In this document: piece by piece, positions 18,828-56,814 of the stretch
Layout: each line of letters starts with the position of its first letter
Numbering within the stretch: the stretch's first letter is position 1
Source: Babesia bigemina
Taxonomy: Eukaryota
Direction: 5' to 3'
NCBI RefSeq assembly: GCF_000981445.1
Contig: NC_027218.1
Coordinates: 1,240,001 to 1,304,000, forward strand
Length of the DNA: 64,000 nt
The notes under the pieces: model-generated
The model's database searches: none
The model's input: the letters and a program-made list of their open reading frames with translations, nothing else
What the model was told of the DNA's origin: nothing
Position numbers and translations under genes: made by a program

Positions 18828-19310
18828 ATGTCGGGAAGGGGCCTATTAGACTGTAAGTGTAACAAAAGCTGTACGGAGCGTGACTGTTATTGCTGTTACG
18901 TGTCTTGTGCAGGATGCACTAGAACGAGGTGTTATTTCTGTATGAAGTTTTACAGTCAGCGCGTGGGTGGAGAAGGGGAGTGCCATCCCGATGGATGTAA
19001 AGAGTGTAAGACACGCACATGTTATTGTTATTGTGGTCTCAAGAAAGGCTCTACTGCATCCAGTTCCCAACGTTCCCTCAGTCAACAGCATTCCCTTACT
19101 TACTCCAGTGCCGCCTCTGCCTCCGGTCCCGTCGCCTCCTCCCGTGAAGAGCATCCCACCCTCAGTCCACAGCTTTCCACCGGCGCCACCGCTGCCACCC
19201 CCGTCCCTTACATCATCGCCCCCGTTGCGCTCATCATCGTCGTCGTCTGCGTCATGATCTACTTCCGCATCCGGCCGTTCCACAGGGTGCGGTATCTACT
19301 GCGCAGCTGA
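18828..19310 (+). CDS. Small Cys-rich single-TM protein, family copy A (160 aa unspliced; possible second exon to 19486)
   Basis: 16 Cys in the first 70 aa, Ser/Pro/Ala stalk, TM PYIIAPVALIIVVVCVMIYF, basic tail RIRPFHRVR; three paralogues in the window. Confidence 0.8.
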   Translation: MSGRGLLDCKCNKSCTERDCYCCYVSCAGCTRTRCYFCMKFYSQRVGGEGECHPDGCKECKTRTCYCYCGLKKGSTASSSQRSLSQQHSLTYSSAASASGPVASSREEHPTLSPQLSTGATAATPVPYIIAPVALIIVVVCVMIYFRIRPFHRVRYLLRS

Positions 19311-19542
19311 TGACAATAACTTAATTAGAAACTGACATCTAATGTTCTAGACAGAGTAATGATTGCGTTGATGACCAATCACATGAGCAAGTTATCAGTT
19401 ACAGCTGCGATGACAGTGGTGACCAAGCAAATGACCAATGCCATGACCAAGGTGGTGGCCAAGCAGCTGACAAGAGTGGTGACTAAGAAGCTGACCTAGT
19501 GGCCGGCTAATTGAATATGTAACGTAATACATGATTTAATGT

Positions 19543-20445
19543 ATGACACACCTATATCATGACCCTCCTCCTCTCCCAAACCTTCAACCCCTGGACCCAA
19601 TAGGCCCAGCCACCGCCGACGTCTCTGTCAACTTCCCACCAATCGATAATCCGGAGTCTCTCCCAAACAGTTACGTGGATCCGTATATGCACGATGCGCA
19701 AGCCGTCGGTATGTGCATTGCCCCGTGGATGAAACAGGCAGAAACTTGAGCCTCCACCGACATCCCCGAGACTGAGCTGTTCCCTTCCCAGGCCCCGCGC
19801 ACTGTCCGGGATATGCTTACTTGGCTGGCTGGGCTTAGGAACCCAAAGCATCATAAGACTCTAGAGAAGTGTATTAAGAAGGCCTTTAGTGGTTTACATA
19901 ATGAGTCATCAGATCTTGCGCTCTCCGTCAACGGGTCTCACGTCCTCCCCCAACATGTATTCGATATACTCCAGCTTACCGCCATGTTTGCAGGTTCAGT
20001 GCTCACCGCCATCGCACCTAACTGGAGAGCTAGTGTTGCATCAAGAACTGTGAAGCCTAACTCTTCCACCCAGTCTGACGAGTTAGATTGCTCCGCCCTC
20101 CTCTGCCAGCTGCTTGACTACGTGTACGCCTGCCACCACCAGTTGCAGTTCCTGAAGGCGCAGTGTAAACGAGATAAACTAAGTGGTGGTTGGAAAAATG
20201 ATGAGTACGGCAGTGACATCACTTCTTCCAAGTCCCCCCTCCAGGCGTTCCTGACTGACGGCTGGGACTCCACCTTCAAAACTCACCCCTTCGACCCGTG
20301 CAACCTGTGCCTAAGGAGCCGCGTCAGGATGGGATTCAGGGACAGAGATTTACCGAGTAGTCAACAAACTGGCGACACCCTTTCTTCCATCCTCACTCCC
20401 AGCTGCGGAGGTGAGCAGCATGATTCGCTAGTCGACACGAAATAG
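19543..20445 (+). pseudogene. Internal fragment of a second ves subtype (ves1b-like)
   Basis: APRTVRDMLTWLAGL...QLQFLKAQC...SPLQAFLTD...RVRMGF is collinear with ves motifs; in-frame TGA at 19747; truncated after TPSCGGE; no ves N-terminus or TM. Confidence 0.8.
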
Positions 20446-20713
20446 TAATTGTCGCCATACGTTATTATATGTTGCATCGATATATATATTGCTGCAGTTG
20501 TCATAACGTATATTACGCCATATCTTACAGTGTCATGGTGCTCTACAAAAGTGTGAAGCGGGCATAACATCCGCGTACGGCCAATGATTGTCTAACGCAA
20601 CGCAGGCGAATTGATGTACAACAACCGTGTTAGTGATTGGATCAAATAATCAAATTGAAATTGGGTGTGGCATGGCTACAGTGGGGCTACGTGGACTCGG
20701 TGAGGCTATGCGG

Positions 20714-20929: not shown

Positions 20930-21794
20930 CTTCCCTCGACTCACTCAACAACCAGCCTTCACAACAGTGAACAACGTGCCTAAAGCCTCGAGCACCCTCA
21001 GCCAACTGACGATTCACAATGACCATACCCCACCCCTATTATGTCGTCCACCTTGTGCTGGGGCAGCCGTGATTGCAGACCTCACAACGCTGACATATAA
21101 TGGGCGTACCCTCCCGCATGCGATAGTTAAACATGTCTTGATTGTTATTCAATGGTAGAGCAACTAACGATGTAGTGTCCACGAAAAGCGCCAAGTCTGT
21201 CTAACATCTGCCTTGATCCAGCCTGGTTATTCTGATGTGACCAACTGAACTAAGTCGCTTGCTTGATGTTTCTGATCGGCACAATGCTGCCACTGAGCAC
21301 GCCACATTACAGCACCTCTCACTCACATGCCACTTGCCAACCTAACAGATGGCCCAGCACGTCACATGGTGCGTCACCCATCGGGTGACGGACAGGATGA
21401 CCACCGGCGTAGTTCCACCTCCCTCTTGAGATTGGGTCACCAACCCCAACAAAGTAGCTAGTACGACGCCATGCCAGCAGATTTTCATTAACTGAATCTT
21501 GCAGGTATAGTGACGCTATACTAGAGTAGAGGGATAGGCGGTGCGTGAGGCGCAGGTTTTGCATCCGTGCTCAAACGCCTTATTTCAAGCACCATCCTCT
21601 GTGTGTCTGTAAGACGCATAAGCCACAAGCCATCAAGCAATATGAAAATGATGAAGACGATGATGGCAACGATGACGGCGGCGATGATGTAAGGGGCGGA
21701 GGTATGGTCACCTCACTGCTCATGTGATCGATCACCAACGCAATCATTACTTCGTCTACGACATTAGATGTAGTTGCCAGTTGCTTTATTGCGA

Positions 21795-22241
21795 TTAGCT
21801 GCGCAGTAGATACCGCACCCTGTGGAACGGCCGGATGCGGAAGTATATCATGACGCAGATGACGACGATGACGAGGGCGACGGCGGCGATGATGTAAGGG
21901 GCGGGGTTGGAAACGGCGGTAGACTGTCGACCGGTTTGGTGCTCTACACTCGGAAGAGAGGGGGAACTTGGGGCTTGGGATGTACGCTGTAGACTGGCGG
22001 ATTCCTGGGCACGGGCTTCGGCAGCTTGTTTAATTCTACAACAGTCACATGGACAACTGTCAGTGTTACAACCAACACATGCCGGAGAGTAGCACGGTTC
22101 TCCTCTCATGCGCGAAGAAGACAAATTGAAACATCGTAAACATCTTGATATTCTACATCCTGTGCAACAATAGGGACAACACTTACAGTGAGGTTTTTCA
22201 CATTTGTTATTACAACCACACGAGAAATCCCAATTACTCAT
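21795..22241 (-). CDS. Small Cys-rich single-TM protein, family copy B (148 aa unspliced; possible second exon to 21713)
   Basis: 18 Cys scaffold, stalk, TM APYIIAAVALVIVVICVMIYF, tail RIRPFHRVRYLLRS identical to copies A and D. Confidence 0.8.
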   Translation of the reverse strand: MSNWDFSCGCNNKCEKPHCKCCPYCCTGCRISRCLRCFNLSSSRMRGEPCYSPACVGCNTDSCPCDCCRIKQAAEARAQESASLQRTSQAPSSPSLPSVEHQTGRQSTAVSNPAPYIIAAVALVIVVICVMIYFRIRPFHRVRYLLRS

Positions 22242-23009
22242 CTTCCCGCTCCCACTCCCCTCAACCTGCAAACATCAATCACTTAAGCAAGCACTCACCA
22301 ACTGCACTCATGAACCACGCACCTCGGCAAGGACACTGACCATCTCCCATCGGCGCTACGATAGCATCCATGTGACCGCCATCCACCGCAACGCCAGTCA
22401 CATCACCACGATGCAGCTATCACAATTGAAGTTGTGCTTAGTTAACGCATGTGGCTGGTGTCCTGTCCGTGGCATGCAGGTGAACCGGTGCCAGTTGAGC
22501 AGTCAACTGTATCCATCACAGACCGTGCAACGGTGCGACCGCTGCTTCTAAATGTCATAACATTTTCGTCATAATGAGTGCATTAGTGAACCACATCACT
22601 TGGTTAATATGGTCGTTATTTACACTGTTACCATCAATGTCACAACGACGCAGTCCACTGGCCATCACGTCACTGTCCCGGCGACATTCCATCCGTGGAG
22701 ATAACATAATATCTATCACGCCAAACAATCACGTTTCACACCACGCGCTTTCACCTGTCACAACACTCGTCATAAGCCTACATCGATCGCTTATAACCCA
22801 GCATCACTGCCAACTATAACCATGGGAGAGCGTGGACACATTCCACAGCTAACTCACAACTCAACATCCCAGAACACGAACCTATAAATGCACTAACAAC
22901 ATTAACTGCCAATTGATGAGTAGGCATTAGGTAATATATTCGTGTGGCTATTAGGTTAGGCGGTGGGTTGCTGGGTAGTGAGTTAGGTGAGTGGCGGTGA
23001 GGTGATTCA

Positions 23010-26000
23010 TCAAGGTTGCAGGTACGATATCTTGGCAAGTTTGCCAACGCGTGCTGCCGCCAACAGTGATTGAGCGGCGATGCGGTGTGATGAGGGTGAG
23101 TGCAAGTGAGATTTGATGTGGAACAGGTCGAGGAGGATGACCATGATGTGGATGAGGTAGAGGAAAGAGAGGAGCCAGAGGGTGAGAAGGAGGTAGGAGA
23201 AAGGTTCTCTGATTTTCCATAGATATTCTGGAATCGTTCTATAAACTAATTTGGCAAGCGCAGCTCCTACTTGCGTCTCATCGTTAAGGATGCTCTTCAA
23301 CGCGCTGCAGAAATCTTTGCACGTACGCTTTTTAGCGCCACTGTCTGACAAGCCGCTCAGTCTGTGCTGGCTTCCAAAAGTGAACCCGTACTTATACAGC
23401 GTTGGATGGGTGTTTTGGCATTCAACGATTGAATGGCATTTGTCATCGTGATTTTTGCTTTCGAGCTGCTTCACGGTTGCTTGCGTATTATTGGACTTCA
23501 GTAAATCATAGTACCCTTTCACTTCGCAATCTTCAACACAGCTTTTGTCGTGGCATCTCGTACCAGCGGTGTCGCAATTCTTGCAGCACTCGTCGAGCAA
23601 CGCCTTAAGCAATGCATAGAATGTTCCAGTTATGTATACAACCCACGACAGATATTGCTTGTTATTGGAGGCCGCGAAAATACTATACAGGTTCAAGTTG
23701 ATAGATTGAACGTACATCCCACACGTCGCCTCGTCGCTGGACTCACACGACGTTATGCTAAACAGATCACCGTTTTTATGGGTACCGTCTGTATTACGGT
23801 GGCTGCTGCTGGCGAAAAGTGAAGGGAGATTGAACTCGTATTCGTTCCCGAAATAAGCCTCCTTGACGGCAGTTTTGAAGGCGACGCGCTTATGCGTCAG
23901 GACTTCCTGCTTCGGCGGTGAAATACCATTCCAGTTTGCCAGGTAACCGTAGAAGAAACCGAAGATATCTCCAAGTGTCTGAGGCGGCGTCTTCAGCAGA
24001 CATTTTGTAAAAGCGCAAAACCTGGTGAGTGGTTTGCTGATGTTACCACAGAGTTGGAAAACAGCATCCCTAAGATGCGTACCGTTTTGTGTATGGGATG
24101 CCACAATGCCAATGTCCCTGAAACCCATCGGCGTTTTACACGGTTTGCCAAAGTGGTTAGAGACAGCACATTCTAGCTTGCAGCCTGGAGCCTTGAATTG
24201 ATGCGGTAAGAAACCCTGGAGACCATCTTCCAGGAACGACTGCAGCGGAGATTTCACTCCGCACGTAGGGTGCCGGTCGCAGTTTTGCCCAGCATTTTGG
24301 TCACCATTTTGGTCACCATTTTGGTTAGCGATTTGGTCAGCTACTTGGGGGCATGTTTGGTTGCCACATTGCTTCCTGTTGCAGTTCCAAGCCGACCCGG
24401 CAACGTGCTGCCCGTATTGACAATCACGCCACCCTCCACTCTCCGGACCGTTCTGACAAATCTTGTATATAAAAGCAAGTTGCTCATACACTCTATTCGA
24501 TACGTCGACGAGCATGTCAAAGCACGCACCTGCACTGCTTGGATAAGTGATGTTACTCTGATTAGTGTAGAAGTCAACGGCATATACACCATCCGCGTGC
24601 CCGTGGCCCTGGATGGCAACCAGCACGTCGACGGAGTAGTTGCAAACACTGCGAAGCTCATCGCCTAATTCCTTAGCGTTCAGGTTCGTCTCAGTGGATT
24701 CAAACTTGTAAGCGGATACATCGTTTGCTTTCGCATCTTCAGGTTTCTTGAACAGGCCTTTTAAGTACGCAACTAGTTTGTCATACATCGGATTGTGCCG
24801 CAGTCCCGTGAGCCATTGCAGCATCTGATATACGTTGCACGGTGCTTTCGGCGCTGGAATGTGGCGAAGGTGAGATGTCTTAAAGTAGATGATAAGGTGC
24901 TCGTGGAAGAAGGTAAGTACGTCAATAATGGTAATCTCTGTAGCACCTTGGCTGCTTCTTTCAGTGGACTTACTGTTCTTCTGCTTCCACTCTGTTAGGA
25001 TGCTATTTGTATGTTTAAGATCCTTGTTTAGTAGGTCACTTGCTATTTTCTCTGCATTGAAGTCATTTTTATTTCTCAACTCCCCCTCGTGGGAATTTTC
25101 CGCTGTGGATACCCTGTAACCGTTCCTTTGGAAAAAAGCTCCTAGCGGATTTGTCATATTTTTTTTGTTTACATTAATCATTTGCAAATTAATTTTCCTG
25201 CTTTTTTGTTTGCCGCATCCGATCTTCAACCCATCCAACTCGTGGTACAATGTCTCTAAAATCGTTAAAAACACCTTCGACAAATTTTTGCCATTATTCG
25301 TCAATTTACCTTCATTATTAACCAATTGATCCAAATTAATTGTCTCCCTATGCCCATCATACCCATTCACATACGCCCGCTCCAACTCCTTGACAAACCC
25401 CTCCAGCCCCGCTCTAACCGCATCGAGCAGCTCCGGGTGCCGGGGGTTGGAGAAGTGGGCGGGGGATAAAACGCTGAGAGAGGAGGAGAGAGAGGAGAGG
25501 AGGGTGGTGAAGCGGGTGTCGAAGTTATAAACCTTTTCATTCTGCTTTTTCAGATGACGTAGCAAGTCATAAAGTCTCTCTTTCAGATCCTTAACTTTTT
25601 CGGACTCCTTAGTTTGCAGCATTATCGACGTGTTTCCATGCGTTTGGTATGGTTGAGTCATAACGTGGCTTTCTACGTATTGTAGGATAGTATAAGCATA
25701 GGTTGTTAAACCCTCTACCAAATACGTAACTTTCGGAGCATCATTTTTAGTTTGAACAACTGCAGCTTTTTTCAGTTCAGTAAGCAAATTAGCGTCATTT
25801 GAACCACGCAACTCGAAGCCATATATTCTCCCCAAAAACCCTTTCAGGCCCTTTTCTCTGTCGTCTTTCATGATTTTCTCAACCTCATATCTTTGAGTTT
25901 CCAGAAAAGTAGTCAGAGATGTCAGCTCCTTTTGCTTGTGTTCCGCATATAATTGTTGCGCTTTGTTTTTTATGTTGGTGGATACCGACATAACTGCTTC

Positions 26001-28424
26001 ATCGACGTAATTTTTGAGAAATCCGATACAATCATCAGCATCAGTCTGGATTTTCTTGTCGAAGATACCAGCTTCTCTTATAATTCCCGCCAGAGAAGTA
26101 AGATCAGTGCTGCCTAGATTACCGATAATATTTTCAATACGCGTCTGGATTCCTTTAACGGACTTTTTAGCATCTCCGTATAACGTATTGGTCATCATAT
26201 GATTTAGGCTTTTCAACTTTTGCTTGACTCCGGTGTCATTATCGACTTTCCCGGCAAGCTTCTCGATTTTTTTGCAGAGTTGTCGAAAGGTGTTCTCGAT
26301 TACACTGGCTCTGTCTATTATCGTGGTTTCAGCCTTTTTAGCGGCTTCAACAAGCGCCCTTGCCTTATTTGTAATAGGTTCTAGATGGACACTCACGATT
26401 TGATCAACAGCCTGTTGCATCTCCAAAATACCATTCGTTATAGCAGCGTTGAAAAGGTTAAACAGGTGTGTGTCGAAGTTCTTTCCTTCGGCGGCCTTTT
26501 TTCCAATATCCGCTGTAATCCCCTTGATAACCATGTTGGGGATAACTCCCGGTATACTATTCCAAATTGCTCTGGCACTGTAGAGCTGGTTCAAGACTTG
26601 TTCTATTTTAGGGCCAACGTCGTCTCTGCCATCTAGTTCTACCGTAGCATCTAGCGCCTTAGATACTCCATTAACACTCCACAACTCAGTATCTTTCAAA
26701 GCTTTGAGACCACGGATCTTAGCATGTTCCCAAGAACCGCCTGTAGCATCCACGGCATGCTGTAACGCTTTCTTCAACTTATCCATATATCCCTCTACGT
26801 TCATTTCGATTGCTGTTGTTAGCGCGGAAATCTTACCACCCAAATTCCATACCTCTTCACCGTCACCCTTATTAAAACCATCCAAAGACTTAGGTACTAA
26901 TTTTTCAACTTGCTGTTGTGTCTCTTTAAGCTTCTTTACCGCGCAGTCTCCTGTTCCATTTTCATCCTGACCCTTAATTTGTTTGATTACACGATCATAT
27001 TCACCCTTCAACTGCTTGAATTGCTGATGCAGCTCCGCAGCTTTGGTTTTGATTTCTTCGACCGCCATACCGATTTCGCGGGGCTTTTCTTCAGCTGGTT
27101 CGATTTCGTTTATAATTTCATCGACCTGATTTTCAATCACTTTGATAAAATTAGTCGCCACCCCAATCCACCTTGCCAAGTCACTCTTAACATCGTCCAA
27201 CATAGTTCTAAGTTGCTCCAATGGAGCCTTAATATTCTTTTCAAACGTTCCTTGCAAATTTTCTCTAAGAGTAATTATATTTTGAAGTATCTCACCATTC
27301 AGAATCTTTTGCAGCTCTTCGAGCTGGCCATTAACCGTCCCATTCAAATCCGCTAAATCCCTGTTCTCACAATTTTTTCTAAAACCTTCAACTACACACC
27401 TTATCAATTTCATCGGCATCTCCAACTTCTTCTTAAGCTCTGAGTCCAACTTCTCTTTGGCTTCTTCGACCTCACTCAATTTCTCAACATACTCTCCGGC
27501 TCGCTGAGTCCACTCGCTAAATTGCGTTTTGAGAGGCTTCCCTTTTTGATTATCCCAATTTATTTTAGTATCTGCAAATAAATCATTCAACTCACTTAAT
27601 GCTTTAGTTACCTTTCTCGTTCTCCTCTTCAAACCAATATCGTACCACATGAGGCCACGATGAACGCTCCCGATGGCCTGAGAAAATCCCGAAACTCCAA
27701 GCCCATTACCAATGGTACCTTTTAAAGCCTCGATACTACTGGTGATATTGTTATTGTAATGCTTTAACAACGGTTCACTGCCCTCTATACATTTAAACAA
27801 AAACACCATCACGGCATCACAGAGCCTGTCCAGGTCGGAGTACACAATACCCTTGCCGTCGTAGCCTTTGGAGTCTTTGTTGAAGCCGAGGAATTTTTCG
27901 AGGCCATCACATAAATGCGTTAAAACATTCTCACTATTCTTTTTTTCAAGTTCAGTAGCAAATGTCTGAAGCTTACCAACAATTTCTCTCCGCTGCTTAA
28001 TCTCAGCCAAACCCTTATCCCTCTCCTCCTGAGGGAGGTGATGGGTATTAGCACAGCCATTTTTAGAGGTTTCGGCTTTTTTGATTTTAGCGTTTAGGTC
28101 ATCTTTTTTAGATTTATCAGCGTTTTCAGGTTCTTTCAATTTCTTATTGGCTTCATCAATTTTAGTCTGCTGCTCCTGACAAAAGGGCTTGACAGGGGGA
28201 CTACCAGAGGAGGGCTGATCAGAAGGGTTTCCACGGCAAATGAGCTTGGATTCGCGTTCATCAAGGGACTTAGTAGCCTTCCCAATTGCCTCCTCAATCA
28301 ACTTTTTCAAAGCTTCAGACAACTTGGTAAGACCATCCTCACCACTCCCATGCCTTACCTGGATGAGCCAGTCGATTGCCTCCCGGAGATTCTCCGGGCA
28401 GTCAGTAAGCTTCTTAGGCACCAT
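23010..28424 (-). CDS. ves/VESA1-like variant erythrocyte surface antigen (1804 aa), copy 2
   Basis: Same N-terminal, GIVYSDLDRLCD, TM and tail motifs as copy 1; highly divergent middle. Confidence 0.92.
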   Translation of the reverse strand: MVPKKLTDCPENLREAIDWLIQVRHGSGEDGLTKLSEALKKLIEEAIGKATKSLDERESKLICRGNPSDQPSSGSPPVKPFCQEQQTKIDEANKKLKEPENADKSKKDDLNAKIKKAETSKNGCANTHHLPQEERDKGLAEIKQRREIVGKLQTFATELEKKNSENVLTHLCDGLEKFLGFNKDSKGYDGKGIVYSDLDRLCDAVMVFLFKCIEGSEPLLKHYNNNITSSIEALKGTIGNGLGVSGFSQAIGSVHRGLMWYDIGLKRRTRKVTKALSELNDLFADTKINWDNQKGKPLKTQFSEWTQRAGEYVEKLSEVEEAKEKLDSELKKKLEMPMKLIRCVVEGFRKNCENRDLADLNGTVNGQLEELQKILNGEILQNIITLRENLQGTFEKNIKAPLEQLRTMLDDVKSDLARWIGVATNFIKVIENQVDEIINEIEPAEEKPREIGMAVEEIKTKAAELHQQFKQLKGEYDRVIKQIKGQDENGTGDCAVKKLKETQQQVEKLVPKSLDGFNKGDGEEVWNLGGKISALTTAIEMNVEGYMDKLKKALQHAVDATGGSWEHAKIRGLKALKDTELWSVNGVSKALDATVELDGRDDVGPKIEQVLNQLYSARAIWNSIPGVIPNMVIKGITADIGKKAAEGKNFDTHLFNLFNAAITNGILEMQQAVDQIVSVHLEPITNKARALVEAAKKAETTIIDRASVIENTFRQLCKKIEKLAGKVDNDTGVKQKLKSLNHMMTNTLYGDAKKSVKGIQTRIENIIGNLGSTDLTSLAGIIREAGIFDKKIQTDADDCIGFLKNYVDEAVMSVSTNIKNKAQQLYAEHKQKELTSLTTFLETQRYEVEKIMKDDREKGLKGFLGRIYGFELRGSNDANLLTELKKAAVVQTKNDAPKVTYLVEGLTTYAYTILQYVESHVMTQPYQTHGNTSIMLQTKESEKVKDLKERLYDLLRHLKKQNEKVYNFDTRFTTLLSSLSSSLSVLSPAHFSNPRHPELLDAVRAGLEGFVKELERAYVNGYDGHRETINLDQLVNNEGKLTNNGKNLSKVFLTILETLYHELDGLKIGCGKQKSRKINLQMINVNKKNMTNPLGAFFQRNGYRVSTAENSHEGELRNKNDFNAEKIASDLLNKDLKHTNSILTEWKQKNSKSTERSSQGATEITIIDVLTFFHEHLIIYFKTSHLRHIPAPKAPCNVYQMLQWLTGLRHNPMYDKLVAYLKGLFKKPEDAKANDVSAYKFESTETNLNAKELGDELRSVCNYSVDVLVAIQGHGHADGVYAVDFYTNQSNITYPSSAGACFDMLVDVSNRVYEQLAFIYKICQNGPESGGWRDCQYGQHVAGSAWNCNRKQCGNQTCPQVADQIANQNGDQNGDQNAGQNCDRHPTCGVKSPLQSFLEDGLQGFLPHQFKAPGCKLECAVSNHFGKPCKTPMGFRDIGIVASHTQNGTHLRDAVFQLCGNISKPLTRFCAFTKCLLKTPPQTLGDIFGFFYGYLANWNGISPPKQEVLTHKRVAFKTAVKEAYFGNEYEFNLPSLFASSSHRNTDGTHKNGDLFSITSCESSDEATCGMYVQSINLNLYSIFAASNNKQYLSWVVYITGTFYALLKALLDECCKNCDTAGTRCHDKSCVEDCEVKGYYDLLKSNNTQATVKQLESKNHDDKCHSIVECQNTHPTLYKYGFTFGSQHRLSGLSDSGAKKRTCKDFCSALKSILNDETQVGAALAKLVYRTIPEYLWKIREPFSYLLLTLWLLSFLYLIHIMVILLDLFHIKSHLHSPSSHRIAAQSLLAAARVGKLAKISYLQP
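24285..24345 (-). repeat. 12-bp in-frame tandem repeat in ves copy 2 (DQIANQNGDQNGDQNAGQN)
   Basis: TTTTGGTCACCA units visible on the + strand. Confidence 0.75.
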
Positions 28425-45019: not shown

Positions 45020-45190
45020 TTACAGGTACGATATCTTGGAAAGGCTGCCGACGTGTGATGCAGCGAGTGGTGATTGCGAGGCAATACGGTGGCTTGAGGG
45101 ACTATACGAATGCGATCGGATGTGGAGGGGAGAAATCAGTGACAATTACGTTCACTAAACCTAAGCCATGAGAGCAAAAGTAGATACAGC
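45020..45190 (-). pseudogene. Decayed ves TM/cytoplasmic tail remnant downstream of Cys-rich copy C
   Basis: Translates LHIRSHSYSPSSHRIASQSPLAASHVGSLSKISYL*; preceded out of frame by YLLLLSWL. Confidence 0.75.
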
Positions 45191-45237: not shown

Positions 45238-45603
45238 CTATGAGAGTCCACTGTAGGGGCTCCGTCGAGGTGTTGGGAGGATGTTGGACAGCTTTTGATA
45301 AGTTATGTTTAGCAGACCGAAATGGTAACATGAAACAACTATGACTAAGATAACGAATATGGGAATAAAAATCCACGCCTTTTTTTTCATACAACATAGA
45401 CAAGTACACTTCAATACTGCTTTGCATCTTGGACATTTAGATGTATCGCATATTTTTTGTTCCTTTGTGAGCGTTGCGCAATTCGATCGACATTTCTGGC
45501 AAGTCGAACACTTCGAACAACACCAAGGACAGCACTGACAACTGGATCCGGAGCAGGATCCGCTGCCACTACTGCTACACGGGCACTCTAGATTATCACC
45601 CAT
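45238..45603 (-). CDS. Small Cys-rich single-TM protein, family copy C (121 aa, no stalk, different TM/tail)
   Basis: 19 Cys with the same CxC...CxCCPWCCxxC...CxCxCC spacing, directly followed by TM AWIFIPIFVILVIVVSCYHF; same upstream element. Confidence 0.75.
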   Translation of the reverse strand: MGDNLECPCSSSGSGSCSGSSCQCCPWCCSKCSTCQKCRSNCATLTKEQKICDTSKCPRCKAVLKCTCLCCMKKKAWIFIPIFVILVIVVSCYHFGLLNITYQKLSNILPTPRRSPYSGLS

Positions 45604-46395
45604 ATTCCCCTTCCTTTACATCTACCTGCAATAGCGTCAAACACATGCCTTAGTCTCGGACTCCCCCTATTCTTTCCCATCAACCTGCACAAGCGTGAAC
45701 CACGCACCTGAGCAGGAACACTGGCTGTCTCCCATCTGGGCCCCAACGAACCATACAACCGTCATCCACCGCACCGCCAGTCACATCACATCTATGCAGA
45801 TATCAGGACAGAAATACAGCTACGTTAACGCATGTGGCTGGTGTCCTGCCCGTGGCATGCATGTCAACCGGTGCCAGCTGGGCAGCTGACTCCATCCATC
45901 ACAGACCAAACAACATAGCCAGCGCTTAATACTACTGTTACATCTATGCCTTAATGAGTGCCTAACTGAGCCACATCACTTGATTAATGTGCTTCTCATT
46001 TACACTGCTACCACCAGTTACACTTAACCACGCCATACACGGGCCATCACGTCGGGTAAACACAGCTACATACATCGCCTCGCACCGCACATAATGGCTA
46101 ACGTGCCAAACAAACACGTTATATACGGCTCACTTTCACTTATCAGACCACGTTTCAGCAGCCTACATTAGTGGCTCATAACCCAGAATCACTGCCCACT
46201 AGAACCGTGGGAGGGCGTTGGCACGTTTCACAGGTAGCTCACAACTCGACATCCCAAACCACGAACCTATCACGGCATAAACTACATCGACTGTCAAATT
46301 GCTGGCCATCTATTAGGTAATATATTTGGGTGAGTATTTGGTTAGGCGGCGGGTTGCTAGGTAGTGAGTTAGGTGGGTGGTGGTGAGGTGGTCTA

Positions 46396-49300
46396 TCAAG
46401 GCTGCAGGTAGGTGAGCTTGGCAAGTTTGCCAAGACGTGCAGCGGCGAGTAGTGATTGGGCAGCTATGCGATGTGATGATGGTGAGTGCAAGTGAGATTT
46501 GATGTGGAGCAGGTCGAGGCGGATGACCATGATGTGGAGGAGGTACAACAAAGAGAGGAGCCAGAGGGAAAGGAGGGTGTAGAAGAAATATTTTCTGATG
46601 GTCCACAAGAAGGTGTCAACGGCAGTGAGGAAATTGTTTAACAACTCGGAATTTAATATGCGATCTAGAGCCTTGCAGAAAATATAGCACCGCTTTTTGC
46701 TTTTGTAACTGGCGTCTGCATATGTGAGGCCATACCGATAGAATACGGGCAGGACTCCACGACAATGGACCATGGAAGTGCAGCCACATTCCTCTGTACC
46801 ATGCTTACCAGATAGGCATTTGCCTTCATGGTGACAGCCTTGGCAACCGGATTCGAAACAGGAAATATTGCAGTATGCATTTTTCAGCTGCTCAAGGAAT
46901 GTGACAATACTAGGACATATGTAAGTCAACCAGGAAAGATACTTGTTGGCGTGTTTAGCGGAGAGGTCAGAGTACGCCGGACCGTTTAGCATCTGAATGA
47001 GGTACCCACAGCCATTTTTATTACAACCAATAAGATATTCGATGTCGGGCGATTTTTCATAGTCATGTTTGTTGTGCGATTTGGAACGATACAATTCCCG
47101 GCAGGAATCAAGCAGCTTTCTGGCATCATTATAGTCACATGCCACCGTTCCGACGATTTTATCGCAAACAGATTTTTGGACACTTTTATCACCACTCGGA
47201 AATCCTGTCTCCGGCATAGTTTTCCACGATTGAGTGAGATGGGAGAAAAAGCAGAATATGTCTGGTAATGACTGAGGTGGACGGCTGATAAGGCATGATA
47301 GGTTGGAATAAACAGTAGTGAACACGCCATTGTCGCCGCATAGTTTGTCAAGCACATCGCACAAGTCCTTTCCCACTCGTGTAGTTCCAGAGAAGCTCCT
47401 GAAACCAAGAGGGGTTAAACATGGCATACTGGGTGGGGTCTTTGTACAAGTCGCACATGTGAGTTTTTGGTTTTCGGATACGATACTGTGCGGCAACATG
47501 CCCCTCAGACCATCTGTGAAGTATAACTGCAGTGGCGAACTGATCGAGCAATCTGCAGTCCCAGATGCCAATTTATCATTATATTGACTGCAATGCCAAT
47601 CGGAAGCCTGCACACCTGTTCCAAATCTGCACTCACCCCAACCGTAGGACGATTTATCGATACTACAGTGAACGTGTAAGAATCGCAGCGCATGAAACAA
47701 TCGTCGAAGAATATCTAACAACATATCGAAGCATTGTGAAGGTTTTTCCATATAGTGCAAATTAAGCGAGTTGTTCATATATTCACAGCCGTAGTACGTG
47801 GCAGCATCACCAAATCCGGCAATTCGTGTAAGCAAATTATATGAATAATCGCATACAGTGGTTAGATCATATGCCATGAGGCCGTGCATTTTTGATACCA
47901 TATGGCGCTCCTTTTCAACGTCATAATAGCTTTTGCAATTCTCTTCGAGTTTCCTAAATATAGGATTATATGGGAGACCTGCTAACCATCCTAGCATCTC
48001 GTAGATGGAAGATGGATACCTAGTCGACGTTGCAATATTGTGGTGAGAGACTCTGCAATATGCTTGTAGATTCCGGAACAGCACAGACAGCGGAGCCTCC
48101 ATCTCTAGTGCAGCGCCCATGTAAACATCAAAACGTTTTCTTGTTTCCTCAGGGTTTGAAAACCCTCCATTATTGTTAAATCCTTTGCCCAATTTGACTG
48201 CAACATCCCAACCAGTCTTATTTTTATAAAGACGGTCGACATTAAACCCTTGGAGCTGCAAATACTTTGCCAAGTCGTATCTGTTTTCGTCCGTTGTTGC
48301 ACTACCGTCAATTGCAAAGGCTTTGTAACTTCTGGCGCATTTATAAAACATCTCATGTAGTCCGTTGAAAAGCATATGAATTGAAGTTAAGCAAACTTTG
48401 GCACAATTTCCTTTGTCAGTATTATCGTTACGGTTCCAGTTGATTGCGCGCCCAGAATACGAATTCACGTATGCCTTTTCCAATTCTTTGCACAATTTTA
48501 ACAACCCAACTCGTAAAATATCCAAAACTGGATATGCCGGAACGTCGAATTCGTGAGGATTTAAATCGCTGAGTAAATTCTGAAATTCAGCAAGATTTGT
48601 CGAAAAGTCGGCATTGTAATGAGTAAGGGTATCCAACAGTCTGGAAAACTTGTCAAAAATACTCTTAACTTTGGAACGATACATTATCATGCAATCATGT
48701 GTGAATACTTTCTTCACATCCCCTCCAGCATAAATCAGTATAACATCTATAAAATCTCTTGCTATTTTGGACAGATCAAGCAATGTTATGTGGTCACCTT
48801 TTTCTAGTTCTGTTTTCATCTTGCTAAGAAAGTTCTCTGCGCTTCGGCGGCCGGATGCATCTAGATCGCCACTCATCCATTTCATCATACCTTTGATTCC
48901 AGTTACAGAATCCTTTTCAATTATCACATTAATCCTTTTCAAACGTTCACTAATTAAACCCTTAAGCTTATTGAGCGCAAACTCCTTGGATTCCGCAAAT
49001 TTAGATAACGCTTCTTTTTTAATATTCTTTTTGGCATTCAAAGATGATCTAAAGTATATATCGTGGAATTCTTGAATGTATTCTTTTGCTTTCGTGTGGA
49101 CATCGTCAATTCCAAAGTTTACCTGCCGAATCATAGCGTCCAATTTATGTAACGAATGGTCCAAGGTGCTTATGGCGATTTTTACCTCCGTATTGAGCGC
49201 TTCATAATATTTTCTAATATCTTTAATAAACTTATCAACACTTAATCTCGCCCGTTTAACAGCTTCGGGTAGCTCTTCAAGCTTACCGATTTTTTCAAAG

Positions 49301-51447
49301 AGCTCTTCGACCGAAATGTTAGCACGTTCTTTTATCACATTGTAAGTGTTTAATGCTCCACCTACTTCAGTGTTAAAAGTTGAATGCTCATTCACAATGC
49401 CATCAGCGAAAATGTTTTTAAGGTCTGTAGTAATCTTTTTTATTTTAGAATGAAGGGAGGTGGAATCGCCAGCACTTGTTACCCACTTTATATAATTTAC
49501 CATGAGATTCTGCACAACAATGTTATCATTATTCGCATTGTACAAGTTAAATACAATTTTTTTTACTATGCCAGTTATCTCAGCGCCGATGGCACCGAAG
49601 AAGGTTTTTTGGTTCTCGTCTACAATCTCTATAAACTCCTGTACAAATGTTTTGAATTTAGGTAATTCACCGGAAATATCTAATTTATATAGCGCATTTT
49701 GAAGTCGAGTATTATTATCCTCAGCCCACTTATGCAACTTTGGAGCTTTAGCATCGCCTTTACCACCTCCTATGCCAATTCGAAATTCTTGAGGGAAATC
49801 AGAGTGACTATAACTCACTTTTACAGCATTCTTCAACCCCGCATCCACCGTCTGAAAATACTCCTGAATAGGCCCATCAATCTTATTTTTAAGCAGAACC
49901 AAGTCATCTTTCACCTTATTATCCAACTGCACAAGTGCCACGGTAATATCGCTTACAGCTGTTGAAATTGTTCTGCCAATGTCGGACGCGCACTTGTTGA
50001 GTTCTACGTTTAGTTGACGAAGGTTTTGCTGAACGGTAGTGACTAGCTGTCGAAGCTGAGATTTGTTCTTGGAAGGCATTGAAGATTTATCATTAACTTC
50101 CTTTAACAACCCCTCTATTGCATCGAATTTTACCCTAAACATGTCTCGTTCATTATTGTTGTATACTGCTGTCAAATATGCATCGGCAACCAACTTCGCT
50201 TCCAATAGAGTGTGCTTGGCAGCCTCAATGGATATCCGTAACTGCCGCGGATATTCTTTCTCTACTTTATCTTTAAGCTGCGTAATATTATCATTTAGCT
50301 TATATCTTAGACCACCATGATTCGTCTCACTCAAACCCTTCTCGAAGGTATCATCCAGCGTTCTAAATTCATTGTCCACCCTAGAACAGTAATCTATGAG
50401 CCCATAAACGTCCCTACTAAAGGAATCTTGATATGATTCTACGAATCGTTTAATTAACTCTATATGCGGTAATAACAGCTCGCTCAATTTCCCGTCTAAA
50501 GTTTTTAGTTTGTTAAATGATTGTTCGGCAATCCCGGGCAGTAGGTCAACTCCGTAAATCCAATCACTGTACACACCTTCAAAGTATTCCTTGCCTTTAA
50601 TATCCTGAAGCTCTTTTAGTAGCTTGGGAATGTTTTGCCCTTCAGTAATGAGATCATTTATATGTCTCGTAACTTCATAGTTAGACGACTTCACTGCACC
50701 CAACCACCCCTGAATACCACTCTTAACATGGTCAATAACAACATTCAAACCTCTTTCGCCTTTACTTAGTTGAGCATCTAAATCAATTACAGAATCATGT
50801 AATTTCTCCTTATAAGGCGAAAGATTCTTATTATCATGGACACCTTTAAGCACCCCGTGCAAAAACGCGATCATCCCGTCACATAGCCTATCCAGGTCCG
50901 AATACACTATCCCATTGCCATTGTAGCCTTTGGAAGAAGGGTCGAAGCCGAGGAAGGTTTCAAGGCCAGTGCACAACTGTTCTAAAATAGGGCTGGGATC
51001 ACTTGTAAATCCACTAAGATTTTTTCTAAGCCCTTCAAGATTCTCCATTCTGGACTGAACATCCTCTAAAGCCTTATCTGTGGAGGTATCAACACGATGA
51101 TTTGTTACACAGCCATCTTTTAATGTTTTAACGTAATTCAAAAGTATTTCTAATTTATCTTCCTCAACAATTCCGGCCTTATCAACCTCTGCCTTCAGAG
51201 CTTTGATGGACTGAATTTTCTCCCTGCAACACTCGTACCGTTGCCCAGCTGGATCAAGAATAGTGCATAGATTATCACAAAAGCTGGTGTAAGTCCTCTC
51301 TATAGCCTCTGCTATCAATTTTTTCAAAGCTTTGGCCAACTGCTCAAGACCATTACCATCTCCACCATGCCTCACTTGGATCAACCAGTCGATGGCCTCC
51401 CGAAGATTCTCAGGGCAGTCAGTAAGCTTCTTAAATCGTGGAGCCAT
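46396..51447 (-). CDS. ves/VESA1-like variant erythrocyte surface antigen (~1683 aa), copy 3
   Basis: ATG 51447 MAPRFKKLTDCPENLREAIDWL; same conserved blocks and tail. Confidence 0.92.
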   Translation of the reverse strand: MAPRFKKLTDCPENLREAIDWLIQVRHGGDGNGLEQLAKALKKLIAEAIERTYTSFCDNLCTILDPAGQRYECCREKIQSIKALKAEVDKAGIVEEDKLEILLNYVKTLKDGCVTNHRVDTSTDKALEDVQSRMENLEGLRKNLSGFTSDPSPILEQLCTGLETFLGFDPSSKGYNGNGIVYSDLDRLCDGMIAFLHGVLKGVHDNKNLSPYKEKLHDSVIDLDAQLSKGERGLNVVIDHVKSGIQGWLGAVKSSNYEVTRHINDLITEGQNIPKLLKELQDIKGKEYFEGVYSDWIYGVDLLPGIAEQSFNKLKTLDGKLSELLLPHIELIKRFVESYQDSFSRDVYGLIDYCSRVDNEFRTLDDTFEKGLSETNHGGLRYKLNDNITQLKDKVEKEYPRQLRISIEAAKHTLLEAKLVADAYLTAVYNNNERDMFRVKFDAIEGLLKEVNDKSSMPSKNKSQLRQLVTTVQQNLRQLNVELNKCASDIGRTISTAVSDITVALVQLDNKVKDDLVLLKNKIDGPIQEYFQTVDAGLKNAVKVSYSHSDFPQEFRIGIGGGKGDAKAPKLHKWAEDNNTRLQNALYKLDISGELPKFKTFVQEFIEIVDENQKTFFGAIGAEITGIVKKIVFNLYNANNDNIVVQNLMVNYIKWVTSAGDSTSLHSKIKKITTDLKNIFADGIVNEHSTFNTEVGGALNTYNVIKERANISVEELFEKIGKLEELPEAVKRARLSVDKFIKDIRKYYEALNTEVKIAISTLDHSLHKLDAMIRQVNFGIDDVHTKAKEYIQEFHDIYFRSSLNAKKNIKKEALSKFAESKEFALNKLKGLISERLKRINVIIEKDSVTGIKGMMKWMSGDLDASGRRSAENFLSKMKTELEKGDHITLLDLSKIARDFIDVILIYAGGDVKKVFTHDCMIMYRSKVKSIFDKFSRLLDTLTHYNADFSTNLAEFQNLLSDLNPHEFDVPAYPVLDILRVGLLKLCKELEKAYVNSYSGRAINWNRNDNTDKGNCAKVCLTSIHMLFNGLHEMFYKCARSYKAFAIDGSATTDENRYDLAKYLQLQGFNVDRLYKNKTGWDVAVKLGKGFNNNGGFSNPEETRKRFDVYMGAALEMEAPLSVLFRNLQAYCRVSHHNIATSTRYPSSIYEMLGWLAGLPYNPIFRKLEENCKSYYDVEKERHMVSKMHGLMAYDLTTVCDYSYNLLTRIAGFGDAATYYGCEYMNNSLNLHYMEKPSQCFDMLLDILRRLFHALRFLHVHCSIDKSSYGWGECRFGTGVQASDWHCSQYNDKLASGTADCSISSPLQLYFTDGLRGMLPHSIVSENQKLTCATCTKTPPSMPCLTPLGFRSFSGTTRVGKDLCDVLDKLCGDNGVFTTVYSNLSCLISRPPQSLPDIFCFFSHLTQSWKTMPETGFPSGDKSVQKSVCDKIVGTVACDYNDARKLLDSCRELYRSKSHNKHDYEKSPDIEYLIGCNKNGCGYLIQMLNGPAYSDLSAKHANKYLSWLTYICPSIVTFLEQLKNAYCNISCFESGCQGCHHEGKCLSGKHGTEECGCTSMVHCRGVLPVFYRYGLTYADASYKSKKRCYIFCKALDRILNSELLNNFLTAVDTFLWTIRKYFFYTLLSLWLLSLLYLLHIMVIRLDLLHIKSHLHSPSSHRIAAQSLLAAARLGKLAKLTYLQP

Positions 51448-52570: not shown

Positions 52571-52618
52571 TGAGAGAGCATAATAACAACAGGCTAAACT
52601 TCTGTTCATCGACGCTGA

Positions 52619-53593: not shown

Positions 53594-53851
53594 TAATTAT
53601 AGCTATAAGCGGTAATATGGTGCTTTGTGGTACAGTATTGATTAAATGTATTAGGGCGTGGTCCTAAGTGTCATGGTGTACAAGAAAATTATGAAGCAGC
53701 AATAACAGCATCGCAAGACCACTGGTTATACAACAGGCTTTATGTGACCATATGCACAACAACCGTGTTAATGATTGGATCAAATAATCAAATTGAGATC
53801 GGATGTGACATGGCTACAGTGAGACTATGTGGACTGGGTGAGACTATGAGA

Positions 53852-54034
53852 TCAGTGGAGTGAAGGCTTGGAACCACGGAACCCGTCCCGTATTTGGCCG
53901 AATATCTCTCCGAGGCTTACGTTATATATCCGACCCATGATGTAAAGGACCAAGACAGCGAGGGCGGGGAACGCAATAAATCCGGCAACAGCGGCTCCGA
54001 TCCCAGGGCCTAACTTTTCCTTCCAGTCTCCCAT
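53852..54034 (-). CDS. 60-aa single-TM microprotein, second family copy 2
   Basis: MGDWKEKLGPGIGAAVAGFIAFPALAVLVLYIMGRIYNVSLGEIFGQIRDGFRGSKPSLH; frame preserved relative to 20714-20929. Confidence 0.6.
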   Translation of the reverse strand: MGDWKEKLGPGIGAAVAGFIAFPALAVLVLYIMGRIYNVSLGEIFGQIRDGFRGSKPSLH

Positions 54035-56325
54035 CTTCCCTCGACTCACTCAACAACCAGCCTTCACAACAGTGAACAACGTGCTTATACCTCGAACACT
54101 CTCAGCCAACTGACGATATACAATGCCTATACTCCCACCCCTACCACGCCATCCACCTTGTGCTGGGGCAAGAATCATCCCACATTTTGCAACGCTAAGA
54201 CACGTGAATATCTATTATCACCACATGTGGCAAGGCGCATGCTGATAATCAAGTGGCACGTCCATCCCAGTAGCCCAGCGTCTCCCCTGTAGACGTATAA
54301 ACGACGAGCAATTCATCCGCAACGTACTTGCAATGCTGTACAATTTCAATTATTAGCACCAATACGCAGTGCTACGTCAACTCAACCTCCACTGTATTTC
54401 GCAACACCTATGAATTCATGCCACCTTAACAAATACTCCTTGACAAATGCCAATTCCACCACTTCGTTAATCTGCTATGTCCACGATACATCTCGGCCCC
54501 ACGCCAATCCGTCCAGCTGCTTCCATTTTCTCCGGTACAGGGACACCTACTAACTAATGATGGGTGAGCGCCATGCCGCTTCTCTTCCACTTGCGCCGGT
54601 TCCACCTTCCCCCTACCGGTCAACGTCACAATTCCGGTTGTTACATCCCGAGTCCCCTGCTAGAGCCTGAGTCTGCTTCGTGACCGGGTACCGCTATTTC
54701 CCGCTTTCGTGCTACTAGTACGCCTATCCCCAAGACCATAGATTGTCCGCGCCCCTCAGCCTCGCAGCTGGATTATGCCTCCATTACGGCGTCCACCTGC
54801 TGCACAGAACTTTTGCTGTTGTACGTCGTGTTGAGCCTCTCACCCTGGGCCCATGCGGGGATCGTTCATTGGTCGTGACTAGGGCGATACCGTTGTCCGG
54901 CCTACCCGCTTTCTTTCCACAATTAGGGCCATATCCACTCCTTCGTAGGCGTGTACGGAAACTCGTACTTTCAAAGCATATATGGAAATTGCGTATACGT
55001 TGTTGTTCTGTATGGTATTCTATACTGCCCCTAACCTCGTAGACGTATCCATCCACCCGAGGCCACCTTGGCATGTTCAACTGTGCCGAGTCCAAAGACA
55101 TATGACGGGTTGGACACAACATTGCTTGCGTCTGATATGCTCCGGTTCTGTGTTTTGAGCCATAGAATATGGTACCTAATAAGTCGTGGAGAATATCACT
55201 CCGTATTGACACCGGCTTGACCGTTGCAGCAATCATGAACGTGGCGTAACAGCAACATCATGCAGCGCTATCCCCAGCAATCTGCATCATGATTAGGTGA
55301 GACATTGCGCCACTTAAACTGATGGTTGCCTCTGTGGTTGAACTAGTCAATGAAAATTTATGAATGGCTGAGGCCTACGAATGTGCCCAATATACGTGAC
55401 ACGAAGCCATTGGGTGAGTAAATTAAACGTGGCATAAATACACCGGTAGCAGTCAAATGGATTAAAACTCTAAATTCTTGGCATATAATCACGGTCTTAT
55501 TAGAAAAGTGCGGCAATGGTTTAGCGCAGTCCACGCCTCCCATCTAGCCGACCCTCACTTCACTGCGCAATTTAGATGCCATACGTAGAAATAAGTTGGG
55601 GACTAATGCCCTCCTAACATTACTGATAAAAGAAACATTCCGGCTGAACGCGTATATGGATCACAGGAACCTAAACAAGGTGCTGGTCGATTGTGGAGAT
55701 TGGCGGCCTGATATTCGGGTCGGCCTCCAACGAATACCGTGCGATGTGAGCTAGCGTGCTATATGCGAGGTGAGTCATTTGTGTAAAGCGGCAATTCGTT
55801 CTGTGCGTATACGATCTGTTACGTACTAGCTGGCGAGATGGTAGCGATGTTGGACAATCCTACGTGAACAGTGGGGGGTGCGGTTACGTGGCATGTGTGG
55901 CCAACATGGTGGTATTTACTAATTTTGTAAAACAAGCCTTAGTTCATTCAGGCAGTAATTAGAAGACAAATGCGATGATATTTAGCAGTGGTGGCACAGT
56001 TGTACGGTCTGTGGAGTATGAAGTCGACTGCCCAGCTGGTACCCTGTGATCTGCATGCCACGGCAAGGATACCTCCAAGATGCGTCACCCAAAGCGCATT
56101 GATGTTGTGACAATGGCATAGTTTTGATGTAATATACGGTGCGTAGAATGACGGTCACCTTGCTGCTACCGTGGCGCCGATGGTAGATGGTCAGTGTCCT
56201 TGCGTAGGTGCGTGTTCATGTTGTAGTTGGTGAGTGTCTTGATAAGGTGCGTGCTCATGAGTGGTTGATGAGTGCTTGCTTAAGTGATTGATGTGTTTGC
56301 AGGTTGAGGGGACTGGGAGGGGAAG

Positions 56326-56814
56326 ATGTCAGGATTGCTGAGGTTCGACTGTGAATGTGGTACGGAATGTCAAATGCCTATTTTGTGTAATTGTTGTCCG
56401 TGGTGCTGTGAAAAATGTACAAGCAAGGATGGTTGCAAAGGATGTAAGGCACATTACCTTAAGCGCACTATGTTCCATATGCCGTACGATTGCGAAATAT
56501 TGAAATGTGCAACGCAATGTAAAAACAACGTGTCTAAATGTTCATGTAAGTGTTGTAAGGAAAAACAGCAACGCTCTTCCCCCGGTCTACACGCTCCCGC
56601 TGTTTTTCCCGGTGTTCAGTCTGAGGCCGCCAGCCATCAACAGCTCCCTTCACGTACCGAAGCTCGGGCCCAAGATCACAATTCTCTACCATTCTCCTCC
56701 CCTCTCCTCCCCATCATCATCGTCCCCGTCGCCCTCATCATCGTCGTCATCTGCGTCATGGTCTACTTCCGCATCCGGCCGTTCCACAGGGTGCGGTATC
56801 TACTGCGCAGCTAA
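56326..56814 (+). CDS. Small Cys-rich single-TM protein, family copy D (162 aa unspliced; 248 aa if intron 56796-56856 is removed, ending 57133)
   Basis: 18 Cys scaffold, stalk, TM, RIRPFHRVRYLLRS. Confidence 0.8.
   Translation: MSGLLRFDCECGTECQMPILCNCCPWCCEKCTSKDGCKGCKAHYLKRTMFHMPYDCEILKCATQCKNNVSKCSCKCCKEKQQRSSPGLHAPAVFPGVQSEAASHQQLPSRTEARAQDHNSLPFSSPLLPIIIVPVALIIVVICVMVYFRIRPFHRVRYLLRS

What the first reader, a model, noticed from the sequence alone, without database searches (positions are those of the whole stretch)
18828..56814. Family of ves-linked hypervariable cysteine-scaffold membrane microproteins (4 copies)
Seen: each of the three full ves genes is followed ~0.77-0.85 kb downstream, on the same strand, by a small ORF (18828+, 22241-, 45603-); a fourth is an orphan (56326+). 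All share a two-cluster Cys framework (about 11 + 7 Cys: CxC-x-C-x-CxCC-xx-CC-xx-C...C-xx-C, linker, C-x4-C-xx-C...CxCxCC; copy A lacks two of these Cys). The residues between the cysteines are almost unalignable, yet TM/tail DNA is nearly identical in A, B and D. There is no signal peptide, as in VESA1. Known: B. bovis ves clusters carry SmORFs (signal-peptide proteins), and VESA1a has a Cys/Lys-rich domain. Inference: this is a distinct small variant surface-antigen or VESA partner family, possibly a free-standing equivalent of the Cys/Lys-rich domain or a metallothionein-like metal-binding module under diversifying selection. I do not recall it being described, but cannot confirm novelty.
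Basis: partly seen in the sequence, partly recalled or inferred. Interest (0 to 1): 0.9.

Follow-up and report, generated by a model that had tools for sequence, protein, structure and literature searches.

The report
Overlooked Babesia variable cysteine-rich membrane microproteins
The cattle parasite Babesia bigemina carries at least 60 small genes, many beside its known surface-antigen genes, for membrane proteins with a fixed cysteine frame and highly variable filling; they likely form an undescribed second set of variable surface antigens, but their expression is not yet shown.

Summary
Four intact ORFs (121-162 aa) share an 11+7 cysteine frame and one C-terminal membrane helix, with no signal peptide. 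Three lie 768-852 nt downstream of a ves1b gene on its strand. They belong to a family of 62 annotated 'hypothetical' proteins, all from Babesia bigemina; 44 of the 62 models lack part of the cysteine domain. Among 22 intact members, non-cysteine identity averages 20%; two tail types are 96% and 88% identical. Linkage extends beyond the window: 15 of 48 chromosomal members are next to a listed ves1b (1.7 expected), but 27 of 48 have none within three genes. Homology tests against ves1b, the ves2 and smORF definitions, Pfam and PDB found no known family. Best reading: variant antigens anchored like VESA1, with a likely disulfide-held outer domain, riding in a ves1b cassette whose flanks are homogenised by gene conversion. 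Not shown: expression (0 of 23 in an RNA-seq table, but only 1 of about 12 ves1b controls), surface location, positive selection (dN/dS saturated) and homology to the B. bovis CKRD. New variant of a known kind.

The parts
12750..17975 (+). ves1b gene V1 (1741 aa), upstream of copy A
   Evidence: an annotated gene of the same length, with the tag next to P0018's, is listed as ves1b and has 2.8-8.9 CPM in blood stage
17976..18827 (+). conserved spacer from ves1b stop to copy A (likely ves 3' UTR, then promoter and intron-containing 5' UTR)
   Evidence: 75-77% identical to the spacers of B and C
18521..18532 (+). invariant 12-mer TGCATGCCACGG, candidate promoter element of A
   Evidence: 4 matches in the window, all exact and one before each copy; 0.4 expected by chance; motif picked from the alignment
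18671..18804 (+). two tandem intron-like units in the likely 5' UTR of A
   Evidence: donor motif at 18671-18678; internal repeat 18690-18752 vs 18767-18827; splicing inferred
18828..19310 (+). copy A, 160 aa, 16 Cys before the membrane helix (lacks Cys7 and Cys18), Ser/Pro linker, type II tail
   Evidence: public model P0018 is identical over residues 44-160 but splices out the first Cys cluster
21524..21712 (-). second, separate membrane-helix copy downstream of B with another tail
   Evidence: family HMM E 1e-4; DNA repeat 21653-21699 vs 21858-21904
21795..22241 (-). copy B, 148 aa, 18 Cys, type II tail
   Evidence: no matching public model found
22242..23009 (-). conserved spacer of B, with the 12-mer at 22467-22478 and donor motif at 22317-22324
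23010..28424 (-). ves1b gene V2 (1804 aa), upstream of copy B
   Evidence: 29% identity to V1 over its whole length, shared C-terminus
45238..45603 (-). copy C, 121 aa, 19 Cys, no linker, type III tail
   Evidence: closest relative P0040, 57%
45604..46395 (-). conserved spacer of C, with the 12-mer at 45850-45861 and donor motif at 45702-45709
46396..51447 (-). ves1b gene V3 (1683 aa from the second Met; ORF open from 51495)
   Evidence: an annotated gene of the same length is labelled BbigVes1b, with 3 peptides, in Table S1 of PMC4066756
55942..56325 (+). upstream region of D: only the proximal ~390 nt are shared with the other copies; 12-mer at 56052-56063, donor motifs at 56206 and 56245
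56326..56814 (+). copy D, 162 aa, 18 Cys, type II tail, no full ves gene upstream

Best explanation
These are protein-coding members of a family of at least 60 Babesia bigemina genes for small single-pass membrane proteins that likely act as a second set of variant antigens on the infected red cell, beside VESA1. Shown: each has an ~80-residue domain with 18 nearly fixed cysteines and a variable filling, usually a Ser/Pro linker, one membrane helix and a short basic tail of one of three types. Shown: many sit directly behind a ves1b gene, joined by a conserved spacer. Inferred: with no signal peptide, the membrane helix would serve as the entry signal, as proposed for VESA1, leaving the cysteine domain outside and the basic tail inside. 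Inferred: the cysteines would pair as about nine disulfides that hold a small fold whose loops vary. Inferred: gene conversion between copies would keep the spacer, helix and tail alike while swapping old, divergent outer domains, and the ves1b-plus-small-gene block would be copied between loci as one unit. My odds: coding family 0.93; outer, disulfide-held domain 0.65; red-cell surface variant antigen 0.5.
For: Coding: 4 of 4 window copies are open although their variable DNA is at the shuffled baseline, while the spacers hold many indels that are not multiples of three. Family: 62 annotated B. bigemina proteins. Frame against filling: 17 Cys columns in at least 80% of 22 intact members, 20% mean identity elsewhere; tails 96% (n=37) and 88% (n=12) identical. 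Topology: net charge +3 to +5 after the helix and -3 to +1 before it in all 20 type I/II members. VESA1 has the same layout without a signal peptide (PMC6630957; PMC9477259). Disulfides: an extra Cys pair is present whole in 22, absent in 18 and single in 3 of 43 models. Both clusters are odd-numbered, and A loses one Cys from each. 19 of 22 intact members have an even count once a helix Cys of P0040 is set aside. Conversion: synonymous differences in helix and tail are only 0.07-0.11 per site; tail types I and II are not clustered on the Cys-domain tree (6 changes each; shuffled means 7.6 and 6.7). Linkage: 15 of 48 adjacent and 20 of 48 within two genes of a listed ves1b, against 1.7 and 3.2 expected; inner chromosome 3 alone gives 6 of 23 against 1.2.
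Against: No expression found: 0 of 23 members are among the ~3,720 genes of an RNA-seq table, and 0 of 6 in a proteome table. The ves1b controls are also mostly missing from the RNA-seq table (1 of about 12), so this is weak. 27 of 48 members have no listed ves1b within three genes, and D has none; the ves list is incomplete, and gives gene order only. 44 of 62 models lack the first Cys cluster: mis-splicing is shown for copy A only, and the others could be broken genes. dN/dS cannot show positive selection (pN 0.52-0.67, pS 0.57-0.91 at non-Cys codons). Three intact members have an odd Cys count, and counted as kinds of change there are two paired against three single; the extra pair may simply be inherited as a block. 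The charge rule is ambiguous for C and P0040. The tree has only 2 well-supported inner branches of 19. A basic C-terminal tail also fits tail-anchored proteins with a cytosolic N-terminus (own knowledge).
Confidence: 0.5

Rival explanations
1. The small protein is a partner subunit of VESA1b. It is switched on with its neighbouring ves1b and supplies, as a separate chain, the cysteine- and lysine-rich domain that B. bigemina VESA1 proteins lack.
For: Fixed position behind ves1b. The domain is 23% Cys and 12% Lys. B. bigemina VESA1 lack the CKRD, only 35% of its ves1 genes are in paired arrangement, and VESA1A was not detected in the proteome (PMC4066756). Members P0073 and P0049 lie two tags from the two dominant VESA1B genes named there.
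Against: No VESA protein among the 34 hits of a length-unrestricted profile search. The Cys HMM has no hit under E 6.9 in 121 ves1b proteins. D and over half of the members have no listed ves1b nearby. D keeps its own upstream element, which suggests a separate transcription unit.
Confidence: 0.15
2. A tail-anchored, metallothionein-like or zinc-cluster protein: the cysteine domain stays in the parasite or red-cell cytosol and binds metal, and the tail sets the membrane it sits in.
For: No signal peptide; helix within 14-25 residues of the C-terminus; CxC, CC and CxxC motifs; three members with an odd Cys count.
Against: 20% identity between cysteines and dozens of copies at antigen loci are not what a metal buffer needs (inference). 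About 9% aromatic residues. No metallothionein or zinc-finger Pfam match at E 0.1. The extra cysteines come as a pair.
Confidence: 0.15
3. Mostly silent passengers: a gene caught in the ves1b duplication block and copied with it, now largely unexpressed or decaying, serving at most as a conversion donor.
For: 0 of 23 in the RNA-seq table; 44 of 62 partial models; the same loci are full of ves relics; near-identical tails at synonymous sites point to copying as much as to protein constraint.
Against: All four window copies and 18 annotated members keep an open frame and the Cys frame despite saturated divergence; neutral decay would break both.
Confidence: 0.1
4. A variable surface protein of the parasite itself (merozoite or tick stage) rather than of the red cell.
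For: The topology argument fits any membrane; a PEXEL-like RxxL motif is present in the first 60 residues of only 1 of 22.
Against: Absent from the table in kinete samples too; linked to red-cell antigen genes; several confirmed exported Babesia proteins have no such motif (PMC9477259).
Confidence: 0.1

Closest known systems
VESA1 / ves1 (B. bovis VESA1a/1b; B. bigemina ves1a/1b)
   Same: No signal peptide, variable N-terminal part, one C-terminal helix, short conserved tail, same loci, conserved ends around a divergent middle.
   Different: About a tenth of the size; no detectable homology of the Cys domain or the tail to ves1b; surface location untested.
CKRD of B. bovis VESA1
   Same: Cys- and Lys-rich and highly variable (PMC6630957); here 23% Cys, 12% Lys.
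   Different: Free-standing with its own anchor; no B. bovis sequence among the hits; no direct comparison with a CKRD was possible.
B. bigemina ves2 and B. bovis smORF
   Same: Short, multi-copy genes near ves1 (PMC4066756).
   Different: Those are signal-peptide proteins without a membrane anchor; ves2 derive from the ves1b 5' end; smORF are absent from B. bigemina. This family is the reverse: anchor, no signal peptide, no ves homology.
Giardia variant-specific surface proteins (VSP)
   Same: Works like: variable Cys-rich N-terminal part on a ~90% conserved C-terminal 38 residues with a membrane stretch; metal against disulfide is debated there too (PMC3656445).
   Different: No homology found; no CRGKA tail; one fixed 18-Cys domain instead of many CXXC repeats; different organism.
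Plasmodium RIFIN/STEVOR beside var genes
   Same: Small variant membrane proteins clustered with the large variant antigen (recalled, not from a call).
   Different: The only RIFIN Pfam match is weak and below the cut-off (17.5 bits against 32, 1 of 16 members); those families have an N-terminal export signal (recalled).

Membership tests
BbigVes2 | homology to the 5' 500 bp of ves1b | tested here: not met
   tblastn of V1-V3 has no hit on the four ORFs; Cys HMM best E 6.9 in 121 ves1b proteins
BbigVes2 | signal peptide and no membrane anchor | tested here: not met
   22 of 22 intact members have a C-terminal helix (hydropathy 2.4-3.4) and none has a hydrophobic N-terminus by a crude hydropathy scan; SignalP was not available
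smORF | signal peptide, RXXL motif, A/B repeat, no membrane helix | tested here: not met
   RxxL-type motif in 1 of 22; helix present; no smORF among the hits
ves1 (VESA1) | conserved VESA C-terminal domain | tested here: not met
   HMM of the last 70 residues of 119 ves1b proteins against 62 members: best E 0.94; ves1a tails were not tested
ves1 (VESA1) | no signal peptide, one C-terminal helix, short conserved tail | tested here: met
ves1 (VESA1) | exposed on the infected red cell; expression switches | not testable with these tools
   no reads available; published tables uninformative
CKRD domain | sequence homology to the CKRD of B. bovis VESA1 | tested here: inconclusive
   no B. bovis hit in a 4-sequence profile search over 1.84 billion representatives and no VESA Pfam match; no CKRD sequence was on hand for a direct test
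metallothionein | soluble, nearly free of aromatic residues (features recalled) | tested here: not met
   membrane helix in all; Tyr+Trp+Phe 8.6% of the Cys domain; no Pfam match
metallothionein | binds Zn/Cd/Cu through thiolates | not testable with these tools
   needs bench work
Giardia VSP | CXXC repeats with conserved motif 2 and CRGKA hallmark | tested here: not met
   no CRGKA tail; no VSP Pfam match; analogy only
6-Cys (s48/45) | s48/45 domain, mostly with signal peptide | tested here: not met
   no such Pfam match at E 0.1 in 16 members or the four ORFs

The most novel reading that the evidence does not exclude
B. bigemina has replaced the two-large-subunit VESA1 of B. bovis with a VESA1b plus microprotein pair: each ves1b locus carries its own ~80-residue, nine-disulfide variable domain of an unknown fold as a separate membrane chain, switched on with its neighbour, so the antigen on the red cell has a component missed by every study of ves genes.
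Probability: 0.15. Interest if true: 0.85.

Novelty: new variant of a known kind. Interest (0 to 1): 0.62.

Why it matters
Surveys of B. bigemina antigen families that I read list ves1a, ves1b, ves1ba, ves2, mfs and 6-Cys genes. A family of 60 or more genes, comparable in number to ves1a or ves1b, sits beside them unnamed. It is under-annotated: only one of the four copies here has a public model, and that model is spliced across its key domain. Corrected models make open questions testable with existing RNA-seq and proteome data: what B. bigemina shows on the red cell, what VESA1b pairs with when VESA1a is not detected, and how genes next to a silenced ves gene are regulated. The cysteine domain matched no solved fold and may be a new small scaffold.

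Tried and rejected
No whole genome is held for the window, so linkage rests on annotation order, not DNA. Sequencing runs: none was listed, which is no evidence on expression. Complex prediction of V1 residues 1165-1741 with copy A gave no verdict (score 0.00, mark 0.34, alignments not used, partner fold uncertain); it counts neither way. AlphaFold2 models were weak: P0020 mean pLDDT 63.6, Cys domain of D 59.7; both suggest four short helices in the domain. Foldseek found nothing; VIA-align found only helix matches at Z 3 or less for the whole protein and nothing for the domain: inconclusive at this model quality. PDB sequence search gave only membrane-helix matches at E 0.17 or more. ESM Atlas: best feature score 0.83 and no usable hit for the domain; leads only. 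Single-cell supplement search was void, since the ves1b control was absent too. Upstream coding exons carrying a signal peptide: rejected for A, C and D (in-frame stops; acceptor-to-ATG distances of 22-24 nt differ in phase). P0053 (E 8e-4) was dropped as unrelated: two CxxC motifs and a helix only. A weak HMM hit at 38499-38678 (-) overlaps a conserved gene on the other strand and was dropped. Scripts stopped with errors after printing the rows cited; the missing parts were redone. Earlier scan findings: nothing shown. Absence from B. ovata and other species is absence from protein databases only; no search for fused longer forms was run with the 16-sequence profile.
Full report
Setting. The window is from a Babesia: its casein kinase clusters with piroplasm orthologues, and all close relatives of the small proteins are named Babesia bigemina. 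The three long ORFs are ves1b-type genes: relatives are B. bigemina and B. ovata proteins, and genes of the same length as V3 and V1 are labelled ves1b in published tables. This matters because B. bigemina has no smORF and its VESA1 lack the Cys/Lys-rich domain (PMC4066756).

Observation. The four ORFs, their strands and their distances from the ves stops (852, 768, 792 nt) are as reported. The first-cluster pattern occurs 4 times in the window and never in 30 shuffles. The DNA shows a sandwich: ves 3' ends 86-87% identical, spacers 75-77%, Cys-coding DNA at the shuffled baseline (59-67% against 61%), helix and tail 92-93% among A, B and D. Open frames across such divergence, next to spacers full of frame-breaking indels, show selection for protein. 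Each gene has its own upstream signature: an exact 12-mer 226-296 nt before the ATG in 4 of 4 copies and intron-like donor and acceptor motifs. D shares only the proximal ~390 nt. I read this as a promoter and spliced 5' UTR (inference; that TGCATG resembles an ApiAP2 site is recalled). In-frame stops in A, C and D exclude upstream coding exons.

Family. Three searches returned 62 annotated proteins, all B. bigemina 'hypothetical'; one further weak hit was dropped. One of the 62 is a mis-spliced model of copy A; B, C and D have no matching model, so the true number is probably higher. Two models (P0060, P0067) look like the same sequence. With A-D, tails fall into type I (34), type II (27), both in tandem (3) and type III (2). 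Both Cys clusters are in 18 models, the second only in 26, neither in 18; 31 of the 44 partial models contain translated 5' repeat text, as expected from wrong splicing, but breakage cannot be excluded. In 22 intact sequences the frame is C-x1-2-C-x3-C-x4-5-C-x-CC-x2-CC-x2-C-x4-7-C-x2-C, a 9-17 residue gap, then C-x4-C-x2-6-C-x4-6-C-x-C-x-CC, with 20% mean identity elsewhere.

Linkage. I mapped 48 chromosomal members to accession order and compared them with 88 ves1b/ves1ba genes from a published table and. Fifteen are adjacent, 20 within two genes and 21 within three, against 1.7, 3.2 and 4.4 for random genes; no draw of 5000 came near (with the published list alone, 14 and 19). Limits: order only, mapping good to about one gene, and an incomplete list (it lacked V3). 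Twenty-seven members have no listed ves1b within three genes; several of them lie in runs of genes missing from the RNA-seq table, some with room for a ves gene. PMC4066756 reports 28 lineage-specific ves1b insertions on chromosome 3, where 28 of the 48 members lie; a ves1b-plus-small-gene block copied as a unit would explain both (inference).

Mechanism. Charge distribution predicts N-out, C-in for all 20 intact type I/II members and is ambiguous for the two type III. VESA1 is the precedent for a signal-less protein exported with that layout. For disulfides: an extra Cys pair is all-or-none in 40 of 43 models (the three singles carry another extra Cys just upstream), and A loses one Cys from each odd-numbered cluster. 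Against: three intact members have odd counts, and neighbouring Cys may travel as a block. Low synonymous divergence in the tail (0.07-0.11) means recent copying, not only protein constraint. Tail types are mixed on the Cys-domain tree, though the tree is weak. Both fit gene conversion that keeps anchors alike and shuffles old outer domains. Positive selection could not be measured because the domain is saturated.

Expression is the gap. None of 23 members checked is in the blood/kinete RNA-seq table of PMC9806345, whereas ordinary neighbours are. Only 1 of about 12 ves1b genes under the same tag prefixes is listed, so variable genes drop out generally, probably through strain mismatch, silencing or shared reads. 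None of 6 members checked is in the proteome table of PMC4066756, which covers 8% of proteins and used the faulty models.

Comparison. It fails the definitions of ves2, smORF, ves1 (by homology), 6-Cys, metallothionein and VSP (see membership tests), but works like VESA1 in layout and like Giardia VSP in design. Pfam gives only sub-threshold helix matches.

In print? Eight searches found no description, and six locus tags appear in no main text. The library omits most subscription journals. [quoted passage not shown] Its figures and supplementary document were not seen. What I saw: PMC4066756 abstract, passages, Results parts 1-2 of 4, Table S1 part 1 of 11 and one search; PMC5660447 passages, section 28, all 81 ves1b rows of Table S2; PMC9806345 passages, data sheet part 1 of 118 and three searches; PMC9531838 passages and one supplement search; PMC10463595, PMC10471129, PMC6630957, PMC9477259 and PMC3656445 passages only.

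Verdict. A real, large, apparently unnamed and badly annotated family. The variant-antigen reading is the most likely (0.5), the VESA1b-partner reading the most novel (0.15). Interest 0.62; new variant of a known kind.

Noticed in passing
window 11648-12902 vs 28275-29526 (and 51287-52546): The 1.25 kb upstream of ves1b genes V1 and V2 is 98.4% identical (80% to V3) while their coding middles are at aligner baseline: a recent conversion of the likely promoter region.
   Followed up: partly
window 19563-20448 (+) and 52700-53594 (+): Twin truncated ves-like fragments, 75% identical over 1.3 kb including 600 nt past the stop, both ending at the same position; the first has an open 210-aa frame. 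Possibly a further short ves-derived family rather than decay.
   Followed up: partly
window 42580-43222 (-): Open 3' fragment of a ves gene with a different tail from ves1b, likely ves1a-type.
   Followed up: no
window 45023-45127 (-) and 57023-57133 (+): Isolated ves1b 3'-end relics lie 110-210 nt downstream of copies C and D on the same strand; before the second is a 21-nt tandem repeat.
   Followed up: no
window 19286-19390, 21717-21820, 56790-56922: A conserved donor-like site in the type II tail and an acceptor-like site ~65 nt further on; three annotated relatives join a type II helix to a type I helix through it (P0036, P0041, P0059), so alternative tails by splicing are possible.
   Followed up: partly
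window 18690-18827 and 56183-56278: The likely 5' UTR holds tandem mini-intron/mini-exon units; annotated relatives carry up to six or more, which gene finders translate as Gly/Ser-rich repeats.
   Followed up: partly
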